A stretch of 64,000 bases of DNA from Eledone cirrhosa (taxonomy: Eukaryota), in contig CAXHJY010000811.1 of the NCBI GenBank assembly GCA_964016885.1, positions 2,546 to 66,545 of the forward strand. Reading direction: 5' to 3'. Both the position numbers and the translations under genes were made by a program. This document shows, in pieces, positions 54,465 to 57,404 of the stretch. Numbering within the stretch: position 1 is the stretch's first letter; every line of letters starts with the position of its first letter. Under the pieces are notes generated by a model. The model did no database searches. It saw only the letters and a program-made list of their open reading frames with translations, and had not been told where the DNA came from.

Positions 54465-54790
54465 GGAACACCAGGTATATTGTTAACGATAGCTGAGTGT
54501 GTAGATTATAGAATAAGTAAATCATTTGCAGAATTGTTGGAGCGTCCGGGTATTGGTTCTTTTTTCTCAGCGCTCTTTGCGTGCAAATCTGGTTGAGTTC
54601 ACCCTTGTCTTTCAATTCCTGTCAATATCAGGTACATTGCTAAGGATAGCTGAGTGAGTAGATTAAAGGATAAGCAAATAATCCGCAGAATCGGTGGAGC
54701 GTCGGACCAAAATGCTTTGTGGTATTTTGGTTCTTTGCTCTCATTTCTGCGGTCTCTCAGTGCAAATCTGGTTGAGTTCACCGTTGTCGT
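54465..54790 (+). repeat. Tandem duplication of a SINE-A-like head with its flank
   Basis: gatagctgagtg.gtagatta...gcagaat...ggagcgtc...gtgcaaatctggttgagttcacc occurs twice. Confidence 0.75.
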
Positions 54791-55706
54791 TCGTTTCTTG
54801 TCAACTGGAACACTCCTCGTTGAAAACTGACGTAGGTCCTTATTTCCTATTCCAAGCAAGTGTATGTATAAATTACATGTAACAGAAAATTTAAGATTGT
54901 AGAGCAGACTTAACGAGTTTATGCTACTATCTAATAAAGGCTTCGTTAGAATGCGAGGCAGTCATGCTCCGTTAGATTAGGAGGCAGCCATGCTTTGCTA
55001 GATTACGAGGCAGTCATGCTCAAGTGTGTTAATTATAAATCTATGTTTTAAAAACAGTGTTAAGAAATAGACATATTTTCTGACTAAGTTTCTGAGAATC
55101 TGACAGAAGGTGTGAGAATATCAGGAAAACAAAATTACCAAAAAATACAAAAAAAAAAAAAAAAAAAAAAAAGCATTAACACAAACATGAAAGAAACAAA
55201 AAGACAAAACTATCCGCAAAATGGTGAACGCCAAAAAAGCAAAAACACAAATCGTAAATGAATACAAATCATAAAAAGTAATTTTGAAAGGAAAGGTAAA
55301 AAAAAAAAGCAAGAAAAAAGAAAAGTTACTACATTTTTCCAGTGACTACATTTTTACGTTGCACTAAATTTCTTCTAAAATTATTTGCAGAAATCAATAC
55401 AAGACAAACATTTTTTTTTTTCAGTATGAATTTCTTTTTAAATTAGTAGTCATATTAAATTGATATTAGCAAGCGCGGCTGTCACTGATGTGCTTAGAAG
55501 TTAATTAGAGCTAACAGAGTTTCTCATCAATCGAAATTTCCCTATGTAACCTTGTTGCCTTATGGGAACACAGATTTAAGTACTTTACTTGTTCGCCATA
55601 CATTTACAGTATTATCCAGCACTTCGTTCTACCGTTTTCTGTCAATTTGAATATTTAATAGAAATTATTTCTAATTTCTACACTCCCTCTGTCCCTGCCT
55701 GCCTAC

Positions 55707-56688: not shown

Positions 56689-56825
56689 GTTTATATATAT
56701 ATATATATATATGTATAAATGTTTATATATATGTGTATACATGTATTTACATACACACACACACATATATATATATATATCAGGATTTTACCGGTTTAAA
56801 CTAGTAAGACCATTTTTTTTTAGTA

Positions 56826-57130
56826 GAGTACTCAATACTTTGGATAGTAGAGTATAAATATAGAGAGTTAGACCACGACGGCTGAGCTCTCGTTTCGAAA
56901 GCAAATTGCAAAAAGCTAGAATTTGCTGTCGAAACAGCAAGAACTCGGCCATCGGGCCCTAACTCTCTCTTATACACACACACACATACATACTTGTGTG
57001 TGTGTGTGAGAGAGAGTTAGGGCCCGATGGCTGATTTCTTGCTGTTTCGACAGCAAATTCTAGCTTTTTGCTATTAGCTTTCGAAACGACAAGAGCTCAG
57101 CCGTCGAGGTCTAACTCTCTATATTTATAC
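56826..57130. mobile_element. Nested palindrome of four H1 hammerhead 3' halves
   Basis: Arms 56852-56969 and 57008-57130 are inverted copies; each arm is itself an imperfect palindrome centred on GCAAATT..AATTTGC-like sequence. Confidence 0.8.
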
Positions 57131-57196: not shown

Positions 57197-57395
57197 GTTT
57201 ATCCTGGGTTCAATCGGGGGTAACCACAGTAAGTAAGGTACTCAATACATAGCAGAGTATATATATTTAATATAGAAAAGGGTTCTACAAGACTAGAACT
57301 GTTTCATTCGGAGGAACTCATCAGGATGCGCTTGCTGATGATTTCTCCCAAATGAAACAGTTCTAGTCCTGCAGAATCCATTTCTATATTAAATA

Positions 57396-57404
<9 letters not shown>
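57197..57404. mobile_element. H3 terminus with two divergent hammerhead cores in inverted repeat
   Basis: Minus strand CTGATGA-GTTC(CTCC)GAAT-GAAAC-AGTTCTA-GTC; plus strand CTGATGA-tttctcccaaat-GAAAC-AGTTCTA-GTC (57335-57368); 10-bp spacer. Confidence 0.8.

What the first reader, a model, noticed from the sequence alone, without database searches (positions are those of the whole stretch)
56826..57130. Palindrome of palindromes built from four ribozyme half-sites
Each ~120-bp arm is a foldback centred on a presumptive stem II (GCAAATT/AATTTGC). It has GAAAC-stem III-GUC/AUC on both strands and no CUGANGA. The arm is then duplicated in inverted orientation around a CA/TG spacer, giving a ~280-bp hairpin. 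This suggests two successive fold-back or template-switch events, and the RNA would be a strong dsRNA substrate for ADAR or Dicer.
Basis: partly seen in the sequence, partly recalled or inferred. Interest (0 to 1): 0.7.

Follow-up and report, generated by a model that had tools for sequence, protein, structure and literature searches.

The report
Mirror-duplicated stub of Hydra Penelope retrotransposon
This nested palindrome is real but ordinary: it is an old, decayed stub of a common Penelope-type jumping gene, made of two head-to-head ends that each keep only half of a self-cutting RNA motif, and it was likely copied once more in mirror image on the spot, long after it landed.

Summary
The 279-bp hairpin (56852-57130) is real; short-read contigs bridge its centre without a difference. 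Longer copies elsewhere carry a complete type I hammerhead (CUGANGA 55-60 nt upstream of GAAAC) and lead through a 1.5-2 kb 3' UTR to a GIY-YIG endonuclease with Hydra-clade motifs. So the arm is the smallest form of the known PLE insertion: two 5'-truncated ends head-to-head in (TA)n, tail on one side. The true stem II is GAYRGC/GCTGTC; both ends stop in loop II. 72 different junctions in 75 stubs, with either arm the longer, fit two primings better than one fold-back. The second copy shares private mutations (92-96% between copies, 73-83% within) and has no source elsewhere, so it is likely a later local inverted duplication centred on the CA/TG tract; 9 of 33 related sites show the same. 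All four half-sites lack the core, and no transcript evidence was found. Ordinary repeat debris with a modest mechanistic lead.

The parts
56779..56860 (-). One-sided 3' tail of the element (long end), ending at ...CCTGAT in (TA)n; holds the GTA(T/C)YGAGTACT motif shared with sister families at 56827-56838
   Evidence: aligns with the tails of dispersed copies L021 and L110; seen on one side only in dispersed copies
56861..56909 (-). Half-site h1, the tail-bearing arm: stem II 3' strand, GAAAC, stem III with a 3-nt deletion, GTC, stem I 3' strand
56908..56919 (.). Head-to-head junction in loop II of the parent hammerhead, with private letters found only in the two window copies
56920..56970 (+). 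Half-site h2, the tail-less arm (short end); ATC in place of GTC
56971..57010 (.). CA/TG microsatellite spacer, self-complementary; centre of the second inversion
   Evidence: bridged by short-read contigs
57011..57061 (-). Half-site h3, mirror duplicate of h2 (45 of 47 letters)
57069..57130 (+). Half-site h4, mirror duplicate of h1 (45 of 48 aligned letters, without the 3-nt deletion), plus the first ~10 nt of the tail; ends in a (TACA)n tract
56852..57130 (.). Whole outer hairpin (second-level inverted duplication)
57197..57400 (-). Neighbouring, separate insertion of a sister family (family C): tail plus palindrome with CTGATGA on both strands

Best explanation
The feature is a decayed stub of a Hydra-clade Penelope-like retrotransposon, two 5'-truncated 3' ends joined head-to-head in a (TA)n tract, which was likely duplicated later in mirror image by a local DNA fold-back at the adjoining CA/TG microsatellite. 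Step 1 (family link shown; enzymology inferred): the element's GIY-YIG endonuclease would cut both strands of a (TA)n target, and reverse transcription would start on uncut RNA at two sites, one at the far end of the tail and one about 25 nt behind the GUC. Both cDNAs stopped some 5-20 nt upstream of the stem II 3' strand, in loop II, and were joined. That leaves a ~110-bp palindrome, a tail on one side, and no CUGANGA on either arm. Step 2 (order shown by shared mutations; mechanism inferred): after the two arms had drifted about 20% apart, a free 3' end in the microsatellite beside the short end would have folded back on its CA/TG complement, copied ~130 bp back across the stub into the start of the tail, and rejoined at a TA/TACA microhomology. 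The product is predicted to be dead as a ribozyme and has no shown function.
For: Dispersed family: 67 matches at 74-82% (40 of 183 candidates scored), tail on one side, in microsatellites. Parent ribozyme: of 18 independent longer copies reaching the core position, 6 have CTGANGA exactly, 9 differ at one letter, 3 at two (counted by eye); on 44 aligned copies of four subfamilies 82.7% of cells pair (0 of 500 shuffles as high; slid controls 24-52%), with stem I C-G/G-C and C3-G8/U3-A8 changes on both sides. ORF link: L258 runs endonuclease (4655-4194) -> UTR -> 3' half-site and tail (2707-2555) on one strand; L144 endonuclease 5590-5846 -> hammerhead 7720-7840; L256 is a head-to-head pair reaching the RT. 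Endonuclease has CxCx5C, no CCHH, CxxC and CxH. Head-to-head pairs at 110 bp, ~230 bp (L090), ~280 bp (L034), 1.7 kb (L145). 72 distinct centres in 75 stubs; tail arm longer by >2 nt in 18, tail-less arm in 21, within 2 nt in 36; non-overlapping joins also occur (L067, L069, L076, L079, L087). A purified PLE protein cuts and extends both strands, starts at two sites that bound the tail, and uses uncut RNA (PMC11167929). Step 2: h1~h4 45/48, h2~h3 45/47, against 36-38 of 45-49 for the other pairs; the private loop occurs only at the two window places with up to 2 mismatches; 9 of 33 examined sites show mirror duplications centred on (TA)n, arms 42 to ~520 bp, three with DNA foreign to the element.
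Against: No full-length family-A copy with an intact RT was recovered; the RWK and DKT motifs were not seen and no RT tree was built. Pfam did not hit the endonuclease and Rfam listed no hammerhead for the parents among 150 of 154 rows shown. The HHR rows were picked with a core-like pattern, so the pairing figures lean towards the model, and two of the five whole-structure measures did not exceed the shuffles. The outer ends of the double palindrome (full tail on one side, end ~10 nt past the usual short end on the other) are also what remobilisation by the element's own enzyme would leave. Non-overlapping joins could come from later deletion. The 9 of 33 were sorted by eye and not checked with reads; the 75 rows include about three redundant copies.
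Confidence: 0.75

Rival explanations
1. The whole double palindrome landed in one step: a read-through RNA from an already decayed stub, tail intact, was copied by a Hydra enzyme from both start sites, and the two cDNAs met in the source's CA/TG flank.
For: Outer ends follow the long-end/short-end pattern; a dispersed copy (L028) also ends ~10 nt past the usual short end; L300 has the same build.
Against: No source copy in the assembly; mirror duplications elsewhere end at arbitrary points and include foreign DNA (L284, L296, L301).
Confidence: 0.13
2. The first-level palindrome arose by self-priming fold-back of one nucleic-acid strand (first reader; also proposed for rotifer Penelope palindromes, PMC3846280), for instance at the small inverted repeat CCAG-T-CTGG in loop II.
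For: Both arms stop in the same narrow zone (median 14 nt); several family-A centres read CCAGACTGG-like with 8-9 nt overlap; many joins show 1 nt or more of overlap.
Against: A fold-back of the tail-bearing cDNA cannot give a longer tail-less arm, seen in 21 of 75 stubs, nor the non-overlapping joins. It may still explain some copies, and this window's junction is too decayed to decide.
Confidence: 0.2
3. Two independent insertions faced each other in one microsatellite and were later homogenised by gene conversion across the hairpin.
For: Most of the 33 examined facing pairs are independent insertions of different subfamilies or with different junctions.
Against: Copy 2 has no tail, shares the private loop, and the arms within each copy were not homogenised; family A facing pairs were not found with a 22-52 nt gap.
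Confidence: 0.05
4. The arm is a MITE (DNA transposon with terminal inverted repeats), and the double form a MITE pair.
For: Short, palindromic, dispersed, in TA-rich targets.
Against: One-sided tail, a new junction in nearly every copy, and a continuum up to endonuclease-bearing retroelements.
Confidence: 0.02
5. The second copy is an assembly artefact.
For: Unplaced 66.5-kb contig; no read or contig spans the whole hairpin.
Against: Arms differ at 5 substitutions and one indel; short-read contigs hold both versions and bridge the centre.
Confidence: 0.02
6. The hairpin is a functional dsRNA locus (ADAR or Dicer substrate kept by selection).
For: Very stable predicted hairpin.
Against: Private to this place, arms decaying, no host gene seen among window ORFs (limited check), no RNA run holding it, and very many similar palindromes in the genome.
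Confidence: 0.03

Closest known systems
Hydra-clade C-terminal EN+ Penelope-like elements (Craig et al. 2021, PMC8557442; seen: passages, section 11, supplement rows incl. Hydra-1_Obim)
   Same: Endonuclease motifs, hammerhead near the 3' end, (TA)n targets, inverted 5'-truncated copy at the 5' end, extension on one side only.
   Different: Tail ~82 nt rather than 30-40; 3' UTR 1.5-2.1 kb, so the full element would exceed the <3 kb described; hammerhead has a 5-bp stem III and a ~45-nt loop II and is unlike the one listed for Hydra-1_Obim; four motifs of this family were not found in the supplement text (line breaks could hide a match).
Poseidon PAc of Anolis, two RT start sites (Frangieh et al. 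2024, PMC11167929; seen: parts 1-2 of 4)
   Same: Two fixed 3' ends bounding a tail; both strands used; ribozyme retained uncut in insertions.
   Different: Other clade; there the pLTR overlaps the ORF start; head-to-head resolution was not reconstituted.
PLE hammerheads (Cervera and de la Pena 2014, PMC4209133; seen: passages)
   Same: Type I, short helix I (4-5 bp), G10.1-C11.1, palindromic loop 3, U3-A8 covariant, pairs on opposite strands 100-700 bp apart.
   Different: Parent has a full helix III and a long loop II; the window copies are only 3' halves.
Palindromes at inverted junctions of Adineta Penelope elements (PMC3846280; seen: passages)
   Same: Head-to-head inverted pLTR with optional tail and palindromic junction.
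   Different: Explained there by self-priming; arm-length symmetry here favours two primings.
Fold-back inverted duplications primed at short inverted repeats (PMC10622511, PMC7467729; seen: search listing and start of abstract only)
   Same: Self-primed synthesis gives a mirror copy centred on a self-complementary spacer.
   Different: Those are large break-induced rearrangements in yeast; here 40-500 bp and centred on microsatellites beside PLE ends.

Membership tests
Type I hammerhead (window half-sites) | CUGANGA core upstream of stem II | tested here: not met
   none within 120 nt of any of the four GAAAC
Type I hammerhead (window half-sites) | GAAA, stem III, NUH, stem I 3' strand | tested here: met
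   present but damaged: deletion in h1, ATC for GTC in h2 and h3
Type I hammerhead (parent copies) | Core with C3-G8 or U3-A8, G10.1-C11.1, three stems | tested here: met
Type I hammerhead (parent copies) | Match to an Rfam hammerhead model | tested here: not met
   none among the 150 of 154 rows shown at E<=5; none in the window
Type I hammerhead (parent copies) | Self-cleavage at GUC | not testable with these tools
   needs an in vitro assay
Hydra-clade PLE | C-terminal GIY-YIG-type endonuclease upstream of the hammerhead | tested here: met
   L258, L144, L261, L149, L264; weak tblastn to other PLE endonucleases; no Pfam hit
Hydra-clade PLE | CxCx5C linker, no CCHH, CxxC and CxH around E and N | tested here: met
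   translations compared by eye with section 11 and the supplement alignment
Hydra-clade PLE | RWK and DKT motifs in the RT N-terminus | tested here: inconclusive
   copies are truncated or decayed there; only the RT 3' part is seen in family A (L256)
Hydra-clade PLE | Placement in the Hydra clade by RT phylogeny | not tested
   no tree built
Hydra-clade PLE | (TA)n insertion, inverted 5'-truncated copy, tail at one end | tested here: met
Hydra-clade PLE | Length generally under 3 kb | tested here: inconclusive
   no full copy; the 3' UTR alone is 1.5-2.1 kb
MITE | Inverted repeats at both termini and a fixed internal sequence | tested here: not met
   one-sided tail; 72 of 75 centres differ
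Non-LTR retrozyme | Tandem units each with a complete type I hammerhead | tested here: not met
   inverted half-sites, no core; definition from bioRxiv 2026.07.22.740005 part 1

The most novel reading that the evidence does not exclude
Hydra-type elements drive a two-stage palindrome factory in this genome: their RT stops at a fixed structure in loop II of its own uncut hammerhead, giving on the order of 100,000 ready-made hairpins, and their endonuclease keeps nicking the adjoining (TA)n/(CA)n tracts, where fold-back synthesis mirrors 40-500 bp of whatever lies next door. That would be an unrecognised, element-driven source of inverted duplications and dsRNA in a lineage known for heavy RNA editing.
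Probability: 0.2. Interest if true: 0.5.

Novelty: new member of a known kind. Interest (0 to 1): 0.22.

Why it matters
As a locus it matters little: it is decayed repeat debris. As a data point it shows that short palindromes of this type are not MITEs or dimeric ribozymes but minimal PLE insertions, and that their junction statistics can test how PLE inverted ends are made, which the literature still lists as open (PMC8557442, PMC11167929). The recurring mirror duplication at the short end is a possible small addition.

Tried and rejected
Rfam at gathering and E-value thresholds: only generic hairpin and microsatellite matches. A direct pattern search for CUGANGA within 34 nt of the half-site gave 2 hits, one a deleted parent and one chance, because the real spacing is longer. 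Pfam GIY-YIG search found 150 scored matches of 10,596 candidates; the 20 fetched and the long ORFs checked belong to CCHH-type PLE families that are not linked to this ribozyme. RAD-seq runs X21-X23 did not cover the locus, so presence/absence polymorphism was not tested. A survey of local inverted duplications in the random sample had a faulty filter and is not used (first part). Summed contig depth was not used as copy number. Look-ups of earlier findings near this place and by sequence were empty. Six paper searches listed no paper on double palindromes of PLE stubs; most hits were seen as listings only, and bioRxiv supplements were not seen.

Full report
Observation. The window holds an outer hairpin from 56852 to 57130 whose arms are 90.8% identical and which folds at -238.6 kcal/mol, z -31. 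Each arm is itself a fold-back, with GAAAC, a stem III and GTC or ATC on each of the four half-arms and no CUGANGA within 120 nt upstream. A 152-nt short-read contig bridges the central spacer with no difference in runs X1 and X2, and the two arm versions appear as separate contigs. These runs are one sample, perhaps the assembled one, and nothing spans the whole hairpin, but an assembly artefact is unlikely. The genome is 3.0 Gb in 1,796 contigs and rich in microsatellites; that it is an octopus is my inference and was not tested.

The arm is a dispersed repeat. One arm as query gave 67 matches at 74-82% identity on many chromosomes (40 of 183 candidates scored). The copies carry one palindrome, an ~82-nt unique segment on one side only, and sit in (TA)n-type tracts. 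Sister families (B, C) share the build and a tail motif; the window has B at 1-136 and C at 27297-27480 and 57197-57400. Forty fixed 9.9-kb stretches (395,840 bp) held 28 fragments of these families, mostly B and C: about one per 14 kb, roughly 200,000 if that holds genome-wide.

The parent ribozyme. Longer copies continue upstream of the half-site into a full type I hammerhead. Of 18 independent family-A1 copies that reach the core position, 6 read CTGANGA, 9 differ at one letter and 3 at two (counted by eye). On 44 aligned rows from four subfamilies, picked with a core-like pattern, 82.7% of cells pair (0 of 500 shuffles as high; slid controls 24-52%); stem I shows C-G/G-C and the core C3-G8/U3-A8 changes on both sides, while two of five whole-structure measures did not beat the shuffles. 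Stem II is GAYRGC/GCTGTC around a ~45-nt loop. Rfam listed no hammerhead for these parents.

The autonomous element. Walking upstream led through a CA-rich 3' UTR to an endonuclease. L258 runs on one strand from endonuclease to UTR to half-site and tail; L144 from endonuclease to the hammerhead 2 kb on; L256 is a head-to-head pair whose long copy reaches the RT; L272 links RT, endonuclease and a family-B hammerhead. The endonuclease has CxCx5C, lacks CCHH, and has CxxC and CxH around the conserved E and N, the marks of the Hydra clade (PMC8557442 section 11 and supplement). Pfam did not hit it, the N-terminal RT motifs were not seen, and no tree was built. The same paper describes an inverted 5'-truncated copy at the 5' end, a tail at one end and (TA)n targets.

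How the first palindrome forms. Head-to-head pairs occur at all sizes, from 110 bp to 1.7 kb and more. In 75 short stubs with a tail on one side (about three redundant) there are 72 different centres, so the junction is made anew at each insertion and there is no MITE-like master. Both arms stop a median 14 nt upstream of GTCGAAAC. The tail-bearing arm is longer by more than 2 nt in 18, the tail-less arm in 21, and 36 are within 2 nt. Some copies join the inverted tail to a sense half-site with no overlap. A fold-back of the tail-bearing cDNA cannot give a longer tail-less arm; two primings can. A purified Poseidon protein cuts and extends both strands, starts at two RNA sites that bound the tail, and uses uncut RNA (PMC11167929). 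Self-priming was proposed for rotifer elements (PMC3846280) and may account for some copies; the window's own junction is too decayed to decide.

How the second palindrome forms. Outer half-arms share 45 of 48 letters, inner ones 45 of 47, while other pairs share 36-38 of 45-49. Copy 2 thus derives from copy 1 after most of its decay. The private loop occurs only at the two window places, allowing 2 mismatches. A pattern for two short ends facing across 30-60 nt found 58 sites. Of 33 examined by eye, two are full double palindromes with a shared junction (L295, 187 bp, 100%; L300, 222 bp, one difference; L300 has a full tail on one side and a cut tail on the other, as here), four have a short third arm with shared private letters (L291, L292, L294, L297), and three are mirror duplications that include foreign DNA (L301, L296, L284; total spans 218, 852 and 1,048 bp). 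The other 24 look like independent insertions or cannot be told. None of the nine was checked with reads. The family-A form of the pattern found none with a 22-52 nt gap. An old family-A stub is also duplicated in inverted orientation 1.9 kb apart at 98.9% (L309). Arbitrary lengths and foreign DNA favour DNA-level fold-back at the self-complementary microsatellite; remobilisation by the element's enzyme remains possible because the outer ends resemble the long and short ends.

Function. All four half-sites lack the core, three are further damaged, and in the hairpin they would be locked in duplex, so cleavage is not expected (inference). The RNA would be an ADAR or Dicer substrate only if transcribed; no RNA run of this organism held the stretch and my limited ORF check found no host gene.

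Verdict. Observation confirmed; interpretation partly supported. A new member of a known kind: a Hydra-clade PLE stub with a later mirror duplication. Earlier notes of this scan reached similar readings for other loci; they are not independent evidence. Interest 0.22.

Noticed in passing
window 57197-57400 and 27297-27480: Family C stubs; the 57197 copy is a palindrome with CTGATGA and GAAAC on both strands, the two ends stopping just upstream of the core rather than in loop II.
   Followed up: partly
L281:1420-1526, L279:1559-1666, L300:597-702: Family B parents carry the U3-A8 core variant (TTGANAA) with a stem II interrupted by a small internal loop.
   Followed up: partly
L140, L152, L157, L151, about 1.1 kb downstream of the ORF stop: Young CCHH-type PLEs end with a TTGAAAA...GAAAC/CAACC-CGGT motif that looks like a minimal U3-A8 hammerhead, read by eye.
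   Followed up: no
L284:1013-2060 and L296:94-944: Near-perfect palindromes of 1,048 and 852 bp centred on (TA)n and including unique DNA; real duplications or assembly artefacts, not checked.
   Followed up: partly
L309:2046-2324 and 4259-4537: An old family-A stub with a bit of flank duplicated in inverted orientation 1.9 kb apart, bounded by (TA)n, 98.9% identical.
   Followed up: partly
G000 C440 (four copies about 26 kb apart) and C5 30.05-30.46 Mb: Long family-A copies amplified inside large tandem segmental repeats.
   Followed up: no
window 56779-56860; all A, B, C tails: A shared GTA(T/C)YGAGTACT motif within a predicted small hairpin in the tail, a candidate RT recognition site.
   Followed up: no
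window 54467-54804 and 54940-55021: Two imperfect direct repeats (80 and 59 nt) and a 26-nt three-copy array.
   Followed up: no
window 46142-46581: A 79-bp tandem array of 5.5 copies.
   Followed up: no
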